DNA of 57,883 nt from a virus (taxonomy: Duplodnaviria > Caudoviricetes). Location: positions 1-57,883 of the IMG/VR virus record IMGVR_UViG_3300028025_002279. One strand, 5' to 3'. Numbering within the stretch: the first letter of the stretch is position 1; every line of letters begins with the position of its first letter. Under the pieces are notes generated by a model. It had not been told where the DNA came from. It searched no databases and saw only the letters and a program-made list of their open reading frames with translations. Position numbers and translations under genes: made by a program. Positions 3,129 through 55,623 of this stretch are shown piece by piece.

Positions 3129-3156
3129 GGGTGGGCAAATGCTCACCCTTTTTTTT
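3129..3156 (+). terminator. intrinsic terminator
   Basis: GGGTGGGC/GCTCACCC stem followed by T8. Confidence 0.85.
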
Positions 3157-6173: not shown

Positions 6174-6205
6174 TTTGTTTGATAACAAACATTTAACTAA
6201 CTTTG
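6174..6205 (+). promoter_or_regulatory. Bacteroidota sigma70 promoter (-33 TTTG, -7 TAACTTTG), near-leaderless
   Basis: TTTG 6174-77, 20-nt spacer, TAACTTTG 6198-6205, ATG 4 nt later. Confidence 0.75.
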
Positions 6206-8805: not shown

Positions 8806-9061
8806 GAGTCTAATACACCAATACACAGCTGTTAAGGATAATAACACTACCATATTGTCAACATCTGATGACCCTACATGGAATGAGAAAGGTGTTCTAT
8901 GCACTATAACTGATGATGGTAATGGTGTAGAGATAAAGCTAGGAAAGAATAAACCACTATACCTAGACTATGCTCAGGAGGAAGAGCTTTTGTCAGCACT
9001 ACTATCCAATAGGGATGAACAGCTAAGACTAATACACATAGATAAAACTATAGAGATATGA
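8765..9061 (+). CDS. hypothetical protein
   Basis: 98-aa ORF. Confidence 0.7.
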   Translation: MKTIYILAPIMIGESLIHQYTAVKDNNTTILSTSDDPTWNEKGVLCTITDDGNGVEIKLGKNKPLYLDYAQEEELLSALLSNRDEQLRLIHIDKTIEI

Positions 9062-9600
9062 TTATCGGAATCAATGGATATGCTGGTGTAGGAAAGGACG
9101 AGGTAGGAAAGCTAATCGTCAAACATGCGCCAACATTTAAGGTTAAGAAGTTTGCAGGTAAGCTCAAAGAGATAGCTACGATACTTACAGGTATACCTAG
9201 CCACTACTTTGAGTCTAGTACTTTTAAACAATCTAAGTTGGGAGGATGGGATATGTCAGTACGTGAGCTGTTACAGAGACTTGGTACGGAAGCTATTCGT
9301 GACGGGCTCCACCCTAATGCTTGGATAAATGCTCTGATGTCTGACTACATGAGAGGTGACGATTGGGTGATAACGGACATGAGGTTTCAGAATGAATACG
9401 ATACGATATGCTCCTATGGTGGCTACACTATACAAGTCTATAGAGCAGGAGTAAGGCCTCCTAACAATCACTCTTCTGAAGCAGGCATCACTAAGGGTTG
9501 CTTCGACTACATCATCGATAATTCTGGCACTCTTGAACAGCTAGAGGAAGAGGTTAAGAGAATCGTATCAGACATTATTGAAAAAGAAAAGAGAAGATGA
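9058..9600 (+). CDS. deoxynucleoside monophosphate kinase
   Basis: IIGING..G.GKD P-loop, FA..LKE, RELLQ.LGTE, ITD.RF.NE, H.SE, I.N.GTLE.L. Confidence 0.9.
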   Translation: MIIGINGYAGVGKDEVGKLIVKHAPTFKVKKFAGKLKEIATILTGIPSHYFESSTFKQSKLGGWDMSVRELLQRLGTEAIRDGLHPNAWINALMSDYMRGDDWVITDMRFQNEYDTICSYGGYTIQVYRAGVRPPNNHSSEAGITKGCFDYIIDNSGTLEQLEEEVKRIVSDIIEKEKRR

Positions 9601-9824
9601 GTACAATACACGAACTTAAGTCTACCATTCCTGTTCATACGCCACATGGTGTTGGAGAGGCTCTGATGATTATAGACTATGGACTAAATACAAATAGTGT
9701 TTGGGTTGTAAGGGTTAAAGGTGGAAGGGTACTGCACTACTACTCCGATGACATAAGAGTCTATGACAATCCTATGAATGGTGGTGGTTGGGATGTAGAC
9801 ATTCCAGAAGATTGGATAAAATAA
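9597..9824 (+). CDS. hypothetical protein
   Basis: 75 aa; V.TP.G.G.A...IDYG...N..WVV. Confidence 0.75.
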   Translation: MSTIHELKSTIPVHTPHGVGEALMIIDYGLNTNSVWVVRVKGGRVLHYYSDDIRVYDNPMNGGGWDVDIPEDWIK

Positions 9825-9826
9825 AT

Positions 9827-9857
9827 TTTGTAGTGTCAAACTATGTTCATAATTTTG
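9827..9857 (+). promoter_or_regulatory. Bacteroidota sigma70 promoter driving the non-coding region
   Basis: TTTG 9827-30, 19-nt spacer, TAATTTTG 9850-57. Confidence 0.8.
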
Positions 9858-9861
9858 TCCT

Positions 9862-9958
9862 GTCAATCCGATTGGATAGTTGCGTTGTTCACTCGGGTTT
9901 GATTTAAGAGAACCCTCTTTCATTGAACCCATACAGACGCAACCTGTGTGGGTTTTTT
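9862..9958 (+). ncRNA. ~95-nt leader/sRNA ending in a terminator whose loop pairs with the 5' region
   Basis: 11-bp stem 9926-36/9944-54 plus T-run; loop ACGCAAC is complementary to GTTGCGT 9879-85. Confidence 0.6.
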
Positions 9959-9960
9959 GT

Positions 9961-10310
9961 TTTGACTAGGGTCTTAGAACGGTTTCACCCCTGCTGTTGG
10001 TATCTAGATGCAGCTAATGAAAGATTACGAGTTCTTTAGAGAAAGCTATGTATGATTTGGACTAGGGGCTTGGCCTTTGTTGGCCAGCCCTCTGGAAGTG
10101 TTTTTCTACGTAGCAATATAGGTAAGACGAAAATCCATGCAATGTCCCTGACCTGACAACATGGTGCTGGAAGCTAGCAATAGTTCACATAGTCAAACGC
10201 CTACCGTCGCAGTAAACGGATACTCTAAATAGCACTGAAGTAGAAGAATACCCATAGTTCTACTGAAAATTGCAGGACCTAGTGTTTTCCAGCAGTAAAG
10301 GTCGAAGTGT
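9961..10310 (+). ncRNA. candidate large structured ncRNA (~350 nt)
   Basis: no ORF, multiple hairpins including a GCAA tetraloop, long-range end pairings. Confidence 0.55.
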
Positions 10311-10339
10311 ATCAATTAAGTAACTAAACCATCTATTAT

Positions 10340-10891
10340 ATGAAGCATCTATTCAAAGCATTATCAGACTTTCAGCAAGAAGTTCCTGTCATCCACAAGG
10401 ATACGCAAGGATACGGGTATAGCTACGCTGACCTACCAACTATCTTTACCATTATCAATCCTCTACTCAAGAAGCATGGTCTAGGATTTACACAGCCCAT
10501 CGTTGGTTCTGTTATACAGACCATAGTATTCCATGTAGAGTCCGGTGAGAGCATTACCTCCGAGATACAAATTCAAGAAGGTGTAGCTCTGAAAGGAATG
10601 AATGAATTCCAAGTATTAGGTAGCGGTATTACCTACCTCCGTAGATACGCATTATCTTCGATTCTAGGCATAGTAACCGATAAGGATACTGATGCAGCAG
10701 GAGAACAGATAAAGCCTGCTGTAGCGTCTACAAATGCGTCTGATGACAAGCCATGGCTAAATGAGTCAAATAAGGAGGCATGGGATAAGGTTGTATCGTC
10801 ACTGAAGAGTGGCTATACTATGACTGATGTCAGGAAGAAGTACAAGGTATCTAAACCTGTAGAGACTAAGCTATTGTCACTAATAAACTAA
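10340..10891 (+). CDS. erf: Erf-family ssDNA annealing protein
   Basis: Y.YADL..I...INPLL.KHGL, Q..GS.ITYLRRYAL..ILGI..D.D.DA. Confidence 0.9.
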   Translation: MKHLFKALSDFQQEVPVIHKDTQGYGYSYADLPTIFTIINPLLKKHGLGFTQPIVGSVIQTIVFHVESGESITSEIQIQEGVALKGMNEFQVLGSGITYLRRYALSSILGIVTDKDTDAAGEQIKPAVASTNASDDKPWLNESNKEAWDKVVSSLKSGYTMTDVRKKYKVSKPVETKLLSLIN

Positions 10892-14534: not shown

Positions 14535-14565
14535 TTTGCTGATATACAAATAGTTTGTAGATTTG
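14535..14565 (+). promoter_or_regulatory. Bacteroidota promoter, near-leaderless
   Basis: TTTG 14535-38, 19-nt spacer, TAGATTTG 14558-65, ATG 5 nt later. Confidence 0.7.
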
Positions 14566-15220: not shown

Positions 15221-15252
15221 GCCCGGCTTGTCTAGGCTGGGCTTTATTTTTT
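15221..15252 (+). terminator. intrinsic terminator
   Basis: GCCCGGCT/GGCTGGGC stem followed by TTTATTTTTT. Confidence 0.8.
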
Positions 15253-15525: not shown

Positions 15526-15545
15526 ACTGAAAACTTACATTGCTT

Positions 15546-17351
15546 ATGGTTACTATGTTTCAGGACATCACGTCCATCACAAATCCCTACGTCGTAAATC
15601 TAGAGACTGTATTAGAAGCTATCAAGTCCGGCAAGTACAAGGATAAGATAGAAGAGATACGCTCAGATATAGATGACGACAGAAGGAGGAAGCTAAAAGG
15701 AAAACTACCATGCGTTTTATTCTGCGGAGAATTTACTAATGGAGTTGAGAAAGAGAAGGATGGTATAAAGTATATATCATTCAGAGACGATAGGTCTCTA
15801 AAGAAACACAGTGGCTTCGTACCCATAGACATAGATAAGCTGGATAACATAGATGTAAGAAGGGAGGAACTAAAAAGCCTCCCATTCATCTATGCTTTAT
15901 GGAAGTCATCTTCCGGTCAAGGTCTACACGGACTAGTAAAGATTGCAGACCCAAATAAACACACACAACATTATCGAGCTCTCTCTAATCACATTCCTGA
16001 TTTAGATAAAACAGCACAAAACCCTTCAAGGGTTCTATACGTATCTTACGACCCAGATATATATATAAACGATAAGTGCGATACGTTCTATGACATAGAA
16101 ACAGAACATAAAGCAGCTGTTGTGTATGGAAAGGGTGATGGCAATACTGACTATAGAAAGGTAGACATTGCTTGTAGAATGATACGTAACGCTCCTGATG
16201 GAGAGAAGCATAACACTCTACTTAGAGCAGCTAACCTTCTAGGTGGATTCGTAGCTACTGAAACTGTTGAGTATGATGTAGCAGAGTATTCTCTGAGACA
16301 CGAGATTAGCAGGAGAAACGTAGACAACATCAACCTAGCATATTCTACTATTAAAGATGGATTGAAGCATGGAATGACCATGCCAATATCCAATATCGAG
16401 TTAGAGTATAAGGCTGCTATTGATGACTTAGGACTAATGGAGGAGGAGCTAAACTTCCTTACCAACAACAAGACTGATGAAGAATATATACACAACTTCA
16501 GACTTGGATTGATACCTCAAGGTCTACCATTTGGTCACTATGCACTAGATGAACACGTGCTCTTAAAAGAGGGTGAGTTCTATGCAATACTTGGTCACTC
16601 TCATATTGGTAAGTCAACACTTACATTGTGGTTCTTGTTCTTGGCGGCACTAAGGTATAACTGGAACTTCATGGTATACTGTGGAGAGAATAGTTCAGCA
16701 TCTGTCAAGATTAAGCTAATGCAGTTCCTTGTAGGCAAGAGGATACAGAAGTTTACAGAGTACGAGCAGAAGCTCTCACTCAAATTTGTAGACGACCACT
16801 TCTTCCTGCTATCAAGTAATGAACTGTACAGCTACAAGGATATCATAAACCATGCCGTAAAGTTGATGGAGTATAAGTCGCTGAAAGGAATATTTATAGA
16901 CCCATATAATTCCCTTAAGATGGAGTTGGTTGGTAACGCTAGTAAGTATACCTACGACTATGAGGCCTACAGTGCCATGCTTACATTTACCAAGAAGTAT
17001 AACACTTCGCTGTTCCTTTCTGTTCACACTACTACAGCTGCACAGAGAGAGAAGGATGGTCAAGGTAATCAAGTAATGCCACACGCAACTGATGCTGAAG
17101 GCGGTAGTGCACTATATAACAGGTGTGACAACTTTATAACCATACACAGGAAGATTAAAGATAACAATGAGTTCATGTATACTCAAGTATCTGTTGATAA
17201 AGTTAGGAATGATGACACGGGTGGTAGGCCTACACATAGAGCAGAGCCTGTAATACTTAGAATGGTAGACAAGGTAGAATTTGTAAACGAAGATGGCACA
17301 CAGCCATTTAATAGAGATAGAGAACTTTTAATTCACGGATATAAAGTATGA
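15546..17351 (+). CDS. primase-helicase fusion (VirE-N/BT4734-like domain + DnaB-like helicase)
   Basis: KLP.V.F.G.F, SG...IDID, S.SG.G, SR..Y.SYDP..Y.N; Walker A GHSHIGKS, Walker B IFIDPYN. Confidence 0.85.
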   Translation: MVTMFQDITSITNPYVVNLETVLEAIKSGKYKDKIEEIRSDIDDDRRRKLKGKLPCVLFCGEFTNGVEKEKDGIKYISFRDDRSLKKHSGFVPIDIDKLDNIDVRREELKSLPFIYALWKSSSGQGLHGLVKIADPNKHTQHYRALSNHIPDLDKTAQNPSRVLYVSYDPDIYINDKCDTFYDIETEHKAAVVYGKGDGNTDYRKVDIACRMIRNAPDGEKHNTLLRAANLLGGFVATETVEYDVAEYSLRHEISRRNVDNINLAYSTIKDGLKHGMTMPISNIELEYKAAIDDLGLMEEELNFLTNNKTDEEYIHNFRLGLIPQGLPFGHYALDEHVLLKEGEFYAILGHSHIGKSTLTLWFLFLAALRYNWNFMVYCGENSSASVKIKLMQFLVGKRIQKFTEYEQKLSLKFVDDHFFLLSSNELYSYKDIINHAVKLMEYKSLKGIFIDPYNSLKMELVGNASKYTYDYEAYSAMLTFTKKYNTSLFLSVHTTTAAQREKDGQGNQVMPHATDAEGGSALYNRCDNFITIHRKIKDNNEFMYTQVSVDKVRNDDTGGRPTHRAEPVILRMVDKVEFVNEDGTQPFNRDRELLIHGYKV

Positions 17352-22703: not shown

Positions 22704-23156
22704 TTATTCAGCCTCCATAGGAATCACTTCTACTTCCTCTACTTCATCAGCCTCTACTTCTTCTTTAGGGAAATTAAGTCCTTCTACCCAACCCTCAAGA
22801 AATCCATATCTTTCAATACCTTCATGAGAAAATGTAAATTGGTAAAACTCAAAAGTATCATCTAATAGATTTCTAATATCCTTATTGAGTTTTTTCAAGC
22901 CTTCCTTGCTAAACTTATACCCACCCTTGTCATCAAGGATAAGTGCACCAGATTCATCTGTGTGTGCGTTGTCTAACCTCAAGTCTTCAAGCTTCTCATT
23001 GTAAGCCTCTAATTCTGCCTTAATTTTAGCTCCAATCTTCTGTAGCTTTTTTACACCCTTAGTGTTTTCTGCAACATGTTCCTTAGAGCCAGATAAAATG
23101 TTGATTGCATTTGCGAGCTGTATTAGCTCCTGATACGTCTTAGTTACTTTTGCCAT
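22704..23156 (-). CDS. hypothetical late protein
   Basis: start moved to ATG 23156; TATTTTTG at 23177-84. Confidence 0.75.
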   Translation of the reverse strand: MAKVTKTYQELIQLANAINILSGSKEHVAENTKGVKKLQKIGAKIKAELEAYNEKLEDLRLDNAHTDESGALILDDKGGYKFSKEGLKKLNKDIRNLLDDTFEFYQFTFSHEGIERYGFLEGWVEGLNFPKEEVEADEVEEVEVIPMEAE

Positions 23157-23220
23157 GGTTTTTGGTATTTGTAAAGCAAAAATAGTGCCAAATTTGTTTT
23201 TTACCAAATAAAATAAACAC

Positions 23221-23244
23221 AAAAACCCAGCATTTCTGCTAGGT
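23221..23244 (-). terminator. intrinsic terminator
   Basis: CCTAGCA-GAAA-TGCTGGG-TTTTT. Confidence 0.8.
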
Positions 23245-53607: not shown

Positions 53608-55623
53608 CTACAGCCTGATGCTGAAAGTCTTAATCGGTATCACAGAATATTCCTTTTCCTTCTTGGCCACCTCAACAGCCACCCCAGATAACAAGCTAAT
53701 CATAAATGCCACACTTCTATCGTATGGGGTTCTGTTTTCATGGTCATACTGCAATAGTTCCTCAAGCAGGTCAATGTATACAACCTTATCGCAATGATTC
53801 TCAATATATGATATACATGTATCTAGCTGCCTAGCCATAGCAAATGCATCTCCAGATGTAACCCCGTATTTGTGAACGGTCCTACGTCTATGCTTATCTA
53901 TAGCAGATTCTGGAGTTCTCATAAGGTAAGACCTAAATCCTTTATTTGAAAAGTAGTCTACGAAATCGTCACCAACGTCATTCTCGTAACATGCACGATA
54001 TCCCCAAAATACAGCACCCTTCAACATCTCATCGTGGAACATAGATTTCATTCTTGGTCTATCTACATATTCAGCAATAGGCATACACGTATTATTTGGG
54101 TCAGAAGGGTCTAGCCTTTCAAATACGTAGCATACTCCCATAGAGCCCTTTCCTGATATTACAGACGACTTAAATGGGTCAATCCCTGACACGTACTTAT
54201 GTGCGTTACCCGGAACCCTAGAACCGTCTACCTCTATAAATTTATTAGCTTCTGTCTTATCTGGTATCTTATAGGCTATCCAAGAGCCCTCTGGGTCGTC
54301 AGCCCAATCTACCGTCCTCTCGTTTTTCCAGTATAGCCTAATTCTTCTAAGGGCAACTCTTTCCTCCTTTAAGAAGTCTATCTGGTTGTATATCTTCTCA
54401 GAGTTGAAGTAACACTTCTTTTGGTCAATCATAAATGCTTCCTCCTCAGTAAAAGGGTTCATCCTTATCTCTTCACTAAGTGCCTTCTTATCTTTAATGA
54501 TTGCCCTCTGTGAAAGAAGGTAATCCTTAGCACCCATAGTTATATTCATTCCGTATCTTTCCTTGATGTACTCCTTCTGCTTTTCAGTAGGGGTATCTAT
54601 TATAGACATACCGAACTCGTCTATAAATCCTTCATATCCATCGTAGGCAGGACAGAAATATCTATAAAGACCAGTAGCTGTATATGCATCATCGAATTGA
54701 GAGCTTCCTTCAAACAACATCTTGTATGGTTCACCACCACTCTTGGCATCGTTTGCTGTAGATGGGATGATACAGAATCCTACCTTAATTGCACCCTTCA
54801 TCATCGTCTTCTTTACAATAGGCCAGTACTGATTTACGGGTACTTCTTTTGGCCACTTACCAGCCTCATCCATGAGTAGGGCAGTTACCCTACCAGAGTC
54901 GTAAGAGTTAAGTGCTGTATTCTTAAAACTAATTTTAGACTCAAGACCAATATCATCGTCAAACACCTGACCTTTCTCTCTTCCCTTAGTCTTTCTTTTA
55001 TCTTTCTTCTTTCTAAATACCAACTCAGTCTTCGTCTCTTCATCTTCTGCTCTAGGCTTAAAGAATACTGGCAAGTTTCTGTATCCGTTCATTACCATAT
55101 ATACGAATGCATCAGATGCGTCCTTACCAGTCTTAGATACGATACCACAGAATGACTTTCTCTGTGTTATAGCTTTCCATACAATGTAACAGGTAGCTTG
55201 TGATGTAGCACCCTCACGACGCTTCTTAATTCTTATAACTCCAAAGCATTGTGGTATCTTCTCACAGTATTCTTGAAAGTAAAAGTATCTTCTGTCTACG
55301 TCACGGTAGTCAGGAAAGTTACCATCTTCTAGCGTCCAATAGTTAAGATAGAAATAGTGTAGTCCATTTATATATGTAGGATTACCATCATTATAAAACC
55401 AATAACCATCATTAATCCTAGCCCACTCTCTCTTGATAAAATTTACGTGTTCATCAGCATATACAGCAGAACCATCTTCATCAAACTCTAGGTCATGAAA
55501 AGACTCTGGTATCTGAATCCTAGTAAACTTTTGCTTAGAAGATTTGTATAGGTCTATGCTAGACTTAGCAGGAACTTCAGGAGTCTTATATGTAATTCCG
55601 TATATATTATGTTCTTGTATCAC
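53608..55623 (-). CDS. terL: terminase large subunit
   Basis: K.RR.G.T Walker A, LLMDEAGKW Walker B, P.T.EEAF, GIDP nuclease Asp. Confidence 0.9.
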   Translation of the reverse strand: MIQEHNIYGITYKTPEVPAKSSIDLYKSSKQKFTRIQIPESFHDLEFDEDGSAVYADEHVNFIKREWARINDGYWFYNDGNPTYINGLHYFYLNYWTLEDGNFPDYRDVDRRYFYFQEYCEKIPQCFGVIRIKKRREGATSQATCYIVWKAITQRKSFCGIVSKTGKDASDAFVYMVMNGYRNLPVFFKPRAEDEETKTELVFRKKKDKRKTKGREKGQVFDDDIGLESKISFKNTALNSYDSGRVTALLMDEAGKWPKEVPVNQYWPIVKKTMMKGAIKVGFCIIPSTANDAKSGGEPYKMLFEGSSQFDDAYTATGLYRYFCPAYDGYEGFIDEFGMSIIDTPTEKQKEYIKERYGMNITMGAKDYLLSQRAIIKDKKALSEEIRMNPFTEEEAFMIDQKKCYFNSEKIYNQIDFLKEERVALRRIRLYWKNERTVDWADDPEGSWIAYKIPDKTEANKFIEVDGSRVPGNAHKYVSGIDPFKSSVISGKGSMGVCYVFERLDPSDPNNTCMPIAEYVDRPRMKSMFHDEMLKGAVFWGYRACYENDVGDDFVDYFSNKGFRSYLMRTPESAIDKHRRRTVHKYGVTSGDAFAMARQLDTCISYIENHCDKVVYIDLLEELLQYDHENRTPYDRSVAFMISLLSGVAVEVAKKEKEYSVIPIKTFSIRL

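What the first reader, a model, noticed from the sequence alone, without database searches (positions are those of the whole stretch)
9961..10310. Candidate large structured ncRNA (~350 nt) of unrecognised class
Seen: no ORF and visibly GC-richer than the flanks. Hairpins include GGGC-TGGCC/GGCCA-GCCC, AGCTA-GCAA-TAGTT, CCGT/ACGG and AGTAGAA/TTCTACT. Long-range pairings ACTAGG-GTC 9965-73 with GACCTAGT 10276-83 and CTGCTG 9991-96 with CAGCAG 10290-95 cross each other (pseudoknot or alternative folds). There is an imperfect internal repeat at 9961-75 / 10056-71. I could not match RNase P, tmRNA or intron signatures. Inference: a novel phage large RNA or replication-origin RNA.
Basis: partly seen in the sequence, partly recalled or inferred. 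Interest (0 to 1): 0.8.

Follow-up and report, generated by a model that had tools for sequence, protein, structure and literature searches.

The report
New modular structured phage leader RNA
The flagged stretch is a real, evolutionarily conserved folded RNA of no known family, and it is the back part of a roughly 450-base RNA that a freshwater phage makes in front of its DNA-recombination genes.

Summary
Window 9961-10310 has no conserved ORF and matches none of 4227 Rfam families. In five diverged relatives its fold is kept by compensatory changes: 18 of 90 pairs changed on both sides, against 5.0±1.9 in shuffles and 0-3 in slid controls. G·U pairs put the RNA on the + strand.

The real long-range helix is 10149-10172 with 10287-10304.

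The RNA starts about 100 nt earlier. A Bacteroidota-type promoter (9827-9857) drives a conserved 5' domain (9859-9970), found in 26 contigs. This domain has a closing helix, three hairpins and a terminator-like H3 with a U tract. Two 7-nt loops stay complementary while their sequence changes freely: 7 of 7 pairs covary.

After the 5' domain, different phages carry at least four unalignable large structured domains. The window has the 'W' type. No terminator or promoter separates it from erf.

Most likely this is a cis-acting leader that controls read-through into the recombination/replication genes. That mechanism is inferred, not shown. A stand-alone or self-assembling ncRNA remains possible. 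GC skew gives no support for an origin.

The parts
9827..9857 (+). Bacteroidota-type promoter: TTTG (9827-9830), a 19-nt spacer, then TAATTTTG (9850-9857). The predicted start is about 9862.
   Evidence: Pattern match. TAnnTTTG ends exactly 4 nt before GTCAATCC in 23 of 25 loci. TTTG lies 18-20 nt upstream of it in 19 of 25, and the spacer sequence varies. The consensus itself is recalled from the literature, not fetched. The start site is inferred.
9859..9866 (+). P0, 5' strand (CCUGUCAA). It pairs with 9962-9970.
   Evidence: Duplex energy against shuffles: mean z -3.0, and 20 of 25 loci have 5% or fewer shuffles as good. The T deletion in L002 and L181 makes the helix perfect. G·U pairs (GAUUGGC) occur in other loci.
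9870..9894 (+). Hairpin H1: stem 9870-9878 with 9886-9894, and the 7-nt loop 'a' at 9879-9885 (GUUGCGU).
   Evidence: helix 1: 89.3% of cells paired, 2 pairs changed on both sides. For the loop see the a:a' entry.
9895..9915 (+). Hairpin H2: GGGUU/AACCC with a conserved 11-nt loop UGAUUUAAGAG.
   Evidence: 100% paired and nearly invariant in 24 distinct sequences. Part of this conservation is imposed by the search patterns used. The independent pattern recovered the same hairpin with variants.
9926..9963 (+). Hairpin H3: stem 9926-9936 with 9944-9954, 7-nt loop a' at 9937-9943 (ACGCAAC), then U tract 9955-9963. It looks like an intrinsic terminator.
   Evidence: Terminator scan. 98.5% paired. 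The U tract is kept in all 25 aligned sequences. Loop a' is the exact reverse complement of loop a in 19 of 20 loci. All 7 loop-loop pairs change on both sides and 96.3% of cells are paired.
9962..9970 (+). P0, 3' strand (UUGAC-U-AGG).
   Evidence: An equivalent GAUUGRC follows the U tract in all four downstream types.
9976..10305 (+). W-type large structured domain, the flagged RNA. Helices: Pa 9993-97/10010-14; Pb 10020-24/10033-37; Pc 10045-55/10105-14; Pd 10059-75/10082-10101; Pe1 10149-54/10299-304; Pe2 10162-72/10287-97; Pf 10173-76/10190-93 (GNRA loop); Pg 10204-07/10216-19; Ph 10220-24/10281-85; Pi 10239-45/10258-64.
   Evidence: RNAalifold on 5 sequences, pair counts with controls, coordinates. 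Two-sided changes: Pc 4, Pe1 3, Pe2 4, Pf 3, Pi 3, Pa 1. Pb, Pd and Ph never vary, so they are untested. Pg is weak.
10306..10339 (+). A/U-rich linker to the erf start codon. It holds no terminator and no TAnnTTTG promoter.
   Evidence: there is no TAnnTTTG on the + strand between 9857 and 11746.
10340..10891 (+). erf (ERF-family single-strand annealing protein), the first gene downstream of the RNA.
   Evidence: PF04404 at E 1.3e-25; phrog_2324 and phrog_155.

Best explanation
The flagged interval is the 3' domain of one + strand RNA of about 450 nt. The RNA is transcribed from the promoter at 9827-9857 (start near 9862) and continues into erf.

Its 5' domain (9859-9970) is shared by at least 26 phage contigs. 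The very 5' end pairs with the sequence just after a U tract (helix P0). P0 encloses three hairpins. The 7-nt loops of H1 and H3 pair with each other. H3 plus the U tract has the form of an intrinsic terminator.

The 3' domain (9976-10305) is a multi-helix fold specific to a small clade. Other phages carry unrelated large folds at the same place.

Proposed working, inferred and not shown. The RNA acts in cis as a leader. Transcripts either stop at H3, giving a roughly 100-nt RNA, or read through. Only read-through transcripts can close P0, fold the large domain and express erf and the recombination/replication genes behind it. The loop-loop contact and the large domain would set or lock that decision, as RNA-based attenuators and antiterminators do.

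Shown: the fold, the strand, the promoter motif, the modular architecture, and the absence of any other promoter or terminator before erf.

Inferred: the start site, termination at H3, and any regulatory effect.
For: Structure.
- 18 of 90 predicted pairs changed on both sides in 5 sequences, against 5.0±1.9 in 500 shuffles (0 of 500 reach it) and 0-3 when partners are slid. 97.8% of cells are paired.
- Helices predicted from three sequences were then confirmed by new compensatory changes in L173, found later.
- Strand: many G·U cells (for example 109-152, 218-356, 279-344) would be A·C on the other strand.

5' domain.
- 25 sequences, 95.7% of cells paired against 86.6% in shuffles and 34-44% when slid.
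- MFE z is -3.90, with 0 of 200 shuffles as stable.
- P0 is supported in 20 of 25 loci.

Promoter: the motif sits at a fixed distance in 23 of 25 loci.

Leader.
- There is no TAnnTTTG and no terminator between H3 and erf.
- In the other types the next start codon follows closely.
- A further strong + strand terminator lies inside the gene array at 15221-15242.

Weak hint of expression. Contigs from RNA libraries of at least 3 studies cover 9862-10286. Two of them (X16, X17) bridge H3 and the U tract into the large domain. DNA carry-over cannot be excluded.

Analogy. conAn2 regions of conjugative plasmids are 260-600 bp RNA elements with only 30-40% identity that confer antitermination in cis (PMC8191782, passages read).
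Against: - No experiment or read ends show a transcript start, termination at H3, or regulation.
- RNA-library contigs cannot give strand, ends or level, and may be DNA.
- A simple attenuator does not need a 330-nt ornate domain. It also does not explain why four unrelated large domains replace one another at this site.
- It does not explain why the loop-loop pair is so variable either.
- Folding energy of the flagged part is not unusual: z is -0.66 and -1.05.
- The covariation for the W domain rests on 5 sequences from about 3 lineages, and the tested structure was derived from the same alignment.
- The large domain lies after H3, not before it, unlike put-type elements.
Confidence: 0.5

Rival explanations
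1. A stable, stand-alone 'ornate' ncRNA cut out of, or ending within, the leader. Its function would lie in the RNA itself, for example a decoy or anti-defence RNA, or a scaffold. The two complementary loops would pair between molecules ('hand in hand') to build homo-oligomers, with loop sequence fixing which molecules can join.
For: - The fold is large, has many helices and GNRA loops, and is better conserved in structure than a spacer would need.
- Two fully complementary 7-nt hairpin loops are what kissing complexes use.
- Loop sequences differ between near-identical phages: window, L002 and L181.
- Large-domain types are swapped like cargo between the same flanks, as in L184 versus L188.
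- Large bacterial and phage-associated RNAs (GOLLD, ROOL, OLE) form homo-oligomers (PMC12286853; search listing and start of abstract only).
Against: - There is no terminator or recognisable processing site at the 3' end of the domain.
- There is no match to GOLLD, ROOL or pRNA models.
- Intramolecular loop pairing explains the covariation equally well.
- There are no data on abundance or size of the RNA.
Confidence: 0.22
2. An immunity-like or feedback circuit in trans. The short RNA terminated at H3 accumulates. Through its loop a' it pairs with loop a of nascent or read-through transcripts from the same promoter, in the same or a co-infecting related phage, and changes their fate. The loop sequences would define specificity groups. 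This works like P4 CI RNA with seqA/seqC, P1 c4, or Gifsy-1 IsrK.
For: - Complementary segments lie on the same strand within one leader.
- The promoter-proximal terminator would give short and read-through isoforms.
- At least 12 different loop pairs occur in 20 loci, and they differ even between phages with 95-96% identical flanks.
- L083 is a natural mismatched recombinant.
- IsrK works as a short RNA acting on the read-through isoform. P4 CI pairs with seqA and seqC to cause premature termination (PMC4825925, passages read).
Against: - There is no match to the C4/CI family model (that it is in Rfam is recalled).
- No consistent third target site lies downstream.
- No integrase or repressor was found among the 29 ORFs scanned, so there is no sign of lysogeny, where such immunity is known.
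- In the free short RNA the two loops would pair with each other and mask the site.
Confidence: 0.15
3. A replication-origin transcript. The long RNA would form a primer or R-loop (as ColE1 RNA II or T4/T7 origin transcripts do), with the kissing loops acting as copy-control or incompatibility determinants.
For: The element lies among replication and recombination genes: erf, an exonuclease, and a primase/helicase at 15540-17351. It is a promoter-driven structured RNA of similar size. Variable loop pairs recall incompatibility determinants.
Against: - GC skew has no inflection near 10 kb.
- There is no antisense promoter motif on the - strand within the region.
- There are no conserved iterons or AT-rich unwinding block. 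The ACTAGG copies are mutated in L002 and L003.
- The large domain is exchangeable for unrelated folds while the replication genes differ independently.
Confidence: 0.08
4. Not an RNA feature: a decayed gene, a neutral spacer, or a structure or protein-binding array at the DNA level.
For: MFE z-scores of the flagged part are unremarkable. Part of it (10100-10199) is the least conserved 100 nt between the window and L003, at 0.59 identity.
Against: The divergent blocks are exactly the ones that change in a coordinated, pair-preserving way. G·U pairs mark one strand. There is no protein-level similarity. A promoter sits at a fixed distance.
Confidence: 0.05

Closest known systems
RNA-based antitermination leaders: HK022 put RNA and conAn2 of pLS20-type conjugative plasmids
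   Same: They are cis-acting structured RNAs made just downstream of a promoter of a mobile element, and they let polymerase pass terminators. put is a pair of adjacent stem-loops (PMC9378689, abstract). conAn2 regions are large (260-600 bp) and poorly conserved in sequence, at 30-40% identity (PMC8191782, passages). That fits the several unalignable large domains seen here.
   Different: No sequence or model similarity could be tested, since no model was to hand. Here the large domain lies after the first terminator-like hairpin. The loop-loop pair and the closing helix P0 have no counterpart in put or conAn2. Activity is untested. The host phylum differs.
P4 CI / P1 c4 immunity RNAs and Gifsy-1 IsrK
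   Same: A promoter-proximal small RNA lies within the leader of the operon it controls, with same-strand complementary segments. IsrK exists as a terminated short form and a read-through form (PMC4825925, passages).
   Different: There is no match to the Rfam C4 model. There is only one complementary partner, and it lies inside the same small domain. No lysogeny genes were seen. Both complementary segments are hairpin loops.
phi29 pRNA and other kissing-loop assemblies (ColE1 RNA I/II; GOLLD/ROOL oligomers)
   Same: Two loops of one RNA are complementary to each other and co-vary between related phages. 7-nt loops that pair in full are typical of kissing complexes. These properties are recalled; PMC12286853 was seen as a listing only.
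   Different: There is no model match. The element lies in the early region, far from the packaging genes; the terminase gene is at 53608-55623. The RNA is contiguous with an mRNA. Oligomerisation is untested.
Rfam RF04312 (trpB ncRNA motif)
   Same: This is the only family with a sub-threshold hit. It shares the general shape of a hairpin, a linker and a terminator hairpin with a U tail.
   Different: Scores are 24.2 bits (window) and 33.9 bits (L182) against a gathering score of 59. The hit lies on the 5' domain, not on the flagged interval.

Membership tests
Any Rfam 15 family (including RNase P, tmRNA, group I/II introns, 6S, C4, pRNA, GOLLD, ROOL; that these are in Rfam is recalled) | Covariance-model score at or above the family's gathering score | tested here: not met
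   There are 0 matches in the whole window at gathering. At E up to 10 in 9700-10500 there are 5 weak hits, none on the + strand inside 9964-10307. Relatives of types W, B, C and D give only a tRNA elsewhere and sub-threshold trpB hits. ARAGORN finds no tRNA or tmRNA.
Rfam RF04312 trpB motif | Score of 59 bits or more | tested here: not met
   24.2 bits (window 9869-9963), 33.9 bits (L182), 25.8 bits (L185).
Intrinsic terminator / attenuator | G+C-rich hairpin followed directly by a U tract, downstream of a promoter and upstream of the regulated gene | tested here: met
   12-pair stem plus T tract at 9925-9963. Stem and U tract are kept in 25 of 25 sequences. The promoter is 70-100 nt upstream. 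Termination itself is not testable here.
P4 CI / P1 c4-type immunity RNA | Complementary same-strand segments in the leader: one in the small RNA, with targets upstream and downstream | tested here: inconclusive
   One complementary pair (a/a') is present in 19 of 20 loci. No consistent further copy lies downstream.
P4 CI / P1 c4-type immunity RNA | Homology to the C4 RNA model; temperate element with an immunity region | tested here: not met
   No C4 hit. No integrase or repressor among the 29 ORFs scanned of the 99 ORFs of 70 aa or more. The scan was incomplete and the contig is estimated 80% complete.
RNA-based processive antiterminator (put, EAR, conAn2) | Structured RNA in the leader, with terminators downstream in the same operon that must be passed | tested here: inconclusive
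   The leader position is met. H3 and a further + strand terminator at 15221-15242 exist. A promoter-like site at 14535-14565 lies in between.
RNA-based processive antiterminator (put, EAR, conAn2) | Measured read-through of terminators that depends on the RNA in cis | not testable with these tools
   This needs reporter assays or in vitro transcription.
Origin primer RNA (ColE1 RNA II type) | Origin signature at the site and an antisense regulator RNA from the opposite strand | tested here: not met
   The cumulative GC skew turns only near 20 kb. No - strand promoter motif of either type lies within 9858-10339.
phi29-type pRNA | Two mutually complementary loops that co-vary | tested here: met
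   7 of 7 loop-loop pairs change on both sides, with 96.3% of cells paired. Whether pairing is within or between molecules cannot be told.
phi29-type pRNA | pRNA model match; gene at the genome end next to the packaging module | tested here: not met
   No Rfam hit. The element lies in the early gene array, about 44 kb from the terminase gene.

The most novel reading that the evidence does not exclude
This is a new class of modular phage RNA. A conserved cloverleaf-like 5' module carries two 'programmable', mutually complementary 7-nt loops. The module is coupled to interchangeable ornate RNA 'cargo' domains (types W, B, C, D) that phages swap by recombination.
Probability: 0.22. Interest if true: 0.9.

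Novelty: categorically new. Interest (0 to 1): 0.8.

Why it matters
Structured RNAs of several hundred nucleotides with solid covariation support and no family assignment are rare. Most that were followed up proved to be ribozymes, riboswitches or self-assembling particles.

This one has three unusual features.
- Its conserved 5' module has a loop-loop pair that is free in sequence but strict in complementarity. That is the hallmark of RNA specificity determinants in plasmid incompatibility and phage immunity.
- Unrelated large RNA folds are exchanged at one site.
- It sits in front of recombination and replication genes in phages of Bacteroidota, a phylum whose gene control is poorly known: there is no Shine-Dalgarno use and the promoters are of their own type (recalled).

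If it is a leader, it offers a testable model for temporal gene control in these phages. If the loops act between molecules, it would be a natural, programmable RNA-RNA recognition module.

If the leader reading is right, the kind of element (a cis-regulatory leader) is known and only the fold family is new.

Tried and rejected
Known families. Rfam at gathering and at permissive E-values on the window and on 8 related loci gave nothing. ARAGORN gave nothing.

Isolated phages. blastn of the gap and of the 5' domain against 50,697 phage records found no match.

Coding. ORF lists and tblastx showed no conserved frame.

Folding energy of the flagged part. It is not significant, so it was not used as evidence.

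Rejected.

Origin by GC skew. Rejected.

A 9-nt perfect complement between the J2/3 linker (9916-24) and 10016-24. It is not better than shuffles, with a fraction of 0.06-0.24 in W loci, and it is absent in the other types. Dropped.

A third copy of the 7-mers downstream, like P4 seqC. No consistent site.

Homology of the W domain with types B, C and D. A covariance model of 10148-10306 (R1) finds only W-type loci: 193 and 136 bits, then 9.6 bits or less at E 1.2 or more. The front half of the W domain was not modelled.

Wider distribution.
- A covariance model of the 5' domain (R2) was run over 100 sources totalling 577 kb. These included 85 Erf loci without the pattern. It found only the window (135.5 bits) and weak hits (23 bits or less) in MAG contigs that had been fetched by the H2 pattern itself.
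- The scan of 185,579 species genomes gave 14 stretches, none with the extended element. No prophage copy and no host were found this way.

RNA runs. Contigs of 4 RNA libraries cover parts of 9862-10286. They show no strand, ends or level. The uncovered parts (before 9862, 10134-10216, after 10286) reflect divergence of the relatives or assembly breaks, and are not evidence of anything.

Literature. Three answered full-text searches listed no description of this RNA among the results returned. This does not prove it is unpublished. Supplementary files were not opened.

One search was my own error. I gave + strand coordinates for a locus stored in reverse, and its alignment (A5) is meaningless and unused.
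Full report
WHERE IT LIES

The window is a 57,883-bp viral contig, linear and estimated 80% complete. Genes run on the + strand up to about 21 kb. These include a dNMP kinase at 9058-9600, erf at 10340-10891, a PDDEXK exonuclease, a primase/helicase with a BT4734-like N-terminal domain, and a Holliday-junction resolvase. From there, lysis and structural genes run on the - strand: amidase, portal and large terminase.

All 95 phage records with a relative of the large terminase have under 60% identity. They are phages of Flavobacterium (68), Cellulophaga (15), Tenacibaculum (2) and Maribacter (1), plus 9 uncultured or unnamed records. The best listed are at 29-30%. The host is therefore probably a member of Bacteroidota. 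This is an inference.

The finding lies in a 515-nt gap (9825-10339) between a 75-aa ORF and erf.

CHECK OF THE OBSERVATION

- The gap has no ORF above 40 aa. The small ORFs are not kept in relatives. tblastx gives nothing below E 1.3.
- GC is 0.434 against 0.41 in the flanks and 0.366 for the contig.
- The four hairpins, the two long-range complementarities and the 16-nt imperfect repeat are all in the sequence.
- Folding energy is not unusual: z is -0.66 on the + strand and -1.09 on the - strand.
- No Rfam family matches, and no isolated phage has similar DNA.

RELATIVES AND COVARIATION

Erf was used as an anchor. This gave 540 confirmed of 592 candidate stretches in viral contigs and 476 of 598 in metagenomes, with the best 80 kept each time. 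Only three viral contigs shared the whole gap: L002 at 96%, and L003 and L004 at 88%. In 67 of the 71 other Erf loci that have an upstream ORF of 50 aa or more, the gap before erf is 113 nt or less. The long gap is therefore special to this group.

Pattern scans added L181 (95%) and L173 (81%). Against L003, the stretch 9800-9999 is 100% identical, while 10100-10199 is the most divergent 100 nt of the whole 3.7-kb comparison, at 0.59 identity. Those divergent blocks nevertheless change in a coordinated way.

- RNAalifold on three sequences predicted 99 pairs, 12 with two-sided changes.
- With five sequences it predicted 90 pairs, 18 with two-sided changes.
- Counted with controls, 97.8% of cells are paired. 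The 18 two-sided pairs compare with 5.0±1.9 in shuffles (0 of 500 reach it) and 0-3 when partners are slid by 1-3 columns.

Examples that can be read directly from the alignment:

| Helix | Window | L003 | L173 |
|---|---|---|---|
| Pe2 | UGCUGGAA/UUCCAGCA | UGCCGACC/GGUCGGCA | not read out |
| Pe1 | UGACC/GGUCG | CCCCC/GGGGG | AAUCCC/GGGAUU |
| Pi | AGUAGAA/UUCUACU | not read out | GCGAAA/UUUCGC |
| Pf | AGCUA-GCAA-UAGUU | not read out | AACC-GAAA-GGUU |

L173 was found after the first structure had been predicted, so it acts as a partial independent test.

Caveats. There are five sequences from about three lineages. The structure was derived from the same alignment. Helices Pb, Pd and Ph never vary and are therefore untested.

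G·U pairs at many positions mark the + strand.

In the first, 4 of 8 pairs are lost in relatives and none is compensated. The second has no two-sided change, and its 3' arm is the 3' strand of Pe2.

THE RNA BEGINS EARLIER

More distant relatives (L083 and L084, with Erf at 73%) share only gap positions 2-137, that is 9826-9961. Scans with three patterns from this part brought the total to 25 other contigs plus the window. Of the 22 stretches, 18 carry the extended element.

The element starts with a promoter of the type known from Bacteroides, TTTG and TAnnTTTG (consensus recalled). TAnnTTTG ends exactly 4 nt before GTCAATCC in 23 of 25 loci. TTTG lies 18-20 nt further upstream in 19 of 25, with otherwise variable spacers. 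The same composite motif occurs four times in the window. Two of the other three sites lie directly upstream of an ORF start on the same strand. The third (23177-23208, - strand) lies just inside the 5' end of the listed 22704-23222 ORF. The count itself is not above chance: 4 against 1.9±1.3.

Downstream of the promoter come the following parts.
- H1: 9870-78/9886-94, with 7-nt loop a.
- H2: GGGUU/AACCC with a conserved 11-nt loop, directly abutting H1.
- An 11-nt linker.
- H3: 9926-36/9944-54, with 7-nt loop a', followed by a U tract.

Loop a' is the exact reverse complement of loop a in 19 of 20 loci, with at least 12 different sequences. In the 25-sequence alignment all 7 loop-loop pairs change on both sides and 96.3% of cells are paired. 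By contrast the H3 stem has one such pair and H2 has none. Part of H2's invariance is imposed by my search patterns.

Near-identical phages differ in both loops. The window has GUUGCGU, L002 has GUAGGAG and L181 has GUCGCAA. L083, which is 99% identical to L084, has a mismatched pair.

The first 7-8 nt of the predicted transcript (GUCAAUCC; CCUGUCAA in the window) pair with the sequence right after the U tract (GGAUUGAC, GAUUGGC or UUGAC-AGG). This holds in all four downstream types: mean z against shuffles is -3.0, and 20 of 25 loci have 5% or fewer shuffles as good. This helix, P0, includes G·U pairs. It closes only in transcripts that pass H3.

The 5' domain alone folds far better than shuffles, with z of -3.90. 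The window holds a single copy.

WHAT FOLLOWS THE 5' DOMAIN ELSEWHERE

In every locus an ORF-poor stretch of about 180-550 nt follows. By sequence these stretches fall into at least four groups.

| Type | Contigs |
|---|---|
| W (this window's type) | 6 |
| B | 16 |
| C | 2 |
| D | 2 |

Types B and D also show pair-preserving changes. In B, 9 of 51 pairs change on both sides in 11 sequences. In D, 7 of 66 pairs do so in 2 sequences.

A covariance model of the W-type Pe domain finds nothing in B, C or D. L184 (type B) and L188 (type D) have the same downstream gene. The large domain therefore behaves as an exchangeable cassette.

Downstream genes differ between loci: Erf, another annealing-type protein, an HNH-like protein and unknowns. 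Loop sequence does not go with domain type.

LEADER OR GENE

Between H3 and erf there is no terminator-like site and no TAnnTTTG. Pe1 ends 35 nt before the erf ATG, and those 35 nt are A/U-rich. So erf can only be reached by polymerases that pass H3, whether they come from the 9827 promoter or from upstream.

Another strong + strand terminator lies at 15221-15242.

Contigs from RNA libraries of at least three studies cover 9862-10286, at 85% likeness or more. Two of them bridge H3 into the large domain. This is only a hint, because DNA carry-over cannot be excluded and contigs show no ends.

MECHANISM

I commit to a cis-acting leader with about 0.5 confidence. H3 stops most transcripts. Read-through transcripts close P0, fold the large domain and carry erf and the following genes. 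The loop-loop contact and the large domain would influence or lock that choice.

The closest working parallels are RNA-based antiterminators, in particular put and the large, poorly conserved conAn2 regions (PMC9378689, abstract; PMC8191782, passages).

What this reading does not explain is the size and exchangeability of the large domain and the freedom of the loop sequences. Hence the rivals:
- a stable, possibly self-assembling ncRNA (0.22);
- a trans-acting specificity circuit like P4 CI or IsrK (0.15; PMC4825925, passages);
- an origin transcript (0.08);
- no RNA function (0.05).

COMPARISON WITH KNOWN FAMILIES AND NOVELTY

No Rfam family is matched. The only sub-threshold hit (trpB motif, 24-34 bits against a gathering score of 59) reflects the generic shape of a hairpin followed by a terminator.

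Defining features of C4/CI RNAs, pRNA and origin primers were tested and not met, apart from the shared property of complementary loops or segments.

I therefore rate the RNA fold family and its architecture as new. If the leader reading is right, the kind of function is a known one. The three answered literature searches listed no description of it.

VERDICT

The finding is real and interesting. It has wrong pairings in detail and an incomplete 5' boundary.
- Confidence that this is a conserved + strand structured RNA: about 0.9.
- Confidence in the proposed mechanism: about 0.4-0.5.
- Interest: 0.8.

Noticed in passing
window 9859-9970; 25 other contigs (alignment A7): A conserved 5' domain with two 7-nt hairpin loops that are always complementary but differ even between near-identical phages. 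At least 12 loop pairs occur in 20 loci.
   Followed up: yes
L083:871-1003 compared with L084:423-555: Two contigs 99% identical here differ in the H3 loop. L084 has a matched pair and L083 a mismatched one (GTAGGAG with CCGCAAC). L083 is a natural recombinant or an assembly chimera.
   Followed up: partly
L165, L175, L176, L184, L186, L187 and others (type B); L163, L166 (type C); L185, L188 (type D): Three further large structured non-coding domains of 250-400 nt sit at the same place after the 5' domain. None matches Rfam. L184 (B) and L188 (D) share the same downstream gene. Types C and D share their first 30 nt or so.
   Followed up: partly
window 9597-9824: The 75-aa ORF before the promoter is absent in L002, where the dNMP kinase gene ends directly at the promoter. 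This is a small-gene indel between close relatives.
   Followed up: no
window 6174-6205 (+), 14535-14565 (+), 23177-23208 (-): Three more exact TTTG-N17-21-TAnnTTTG sites. Two lie directly upstream of an ORF start on the same strand. The third lies just inside the listed start of the 22704-23222 ORF. They are probable promoters of the host's type.
   Followed up: partly
window 3129-3148 and 15221-15242 (+): Strong terminator-like hairpins with T tracts inside the + strand gene array, which splits it into transcription units.
   Followed up: no
L190:478-609, L196:3619-3750 (-), L191:6536-6668: MAG contigs binned to unrelated phyla and identical to each other here. They give weak full-length hits (23 bits or less) to the 5'-domain model, with an H2-like hairpin but no H3. 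Either a diverged relative or chance.
   Followed up: partly
L163:287-359 (-): A tRNA gene (41.4 bits) lies just downstream of the annealing-protein gene that follows the type C RNA.
   Followed up: no
window 10327-10337 and 10343-10353: A direct repeat AACCATCTATT / AAGCATCTATT straddles the erf start codon. It misled MAFFT when aligning L173.
   Followed up: no
window 9916-9924 and 10016-10024: A perfect 9-nt complement between the H2-H3 linker and the 5' strand of helix Pb. It is not better than shuffles and is absent in the other types.
   Followed up: yes
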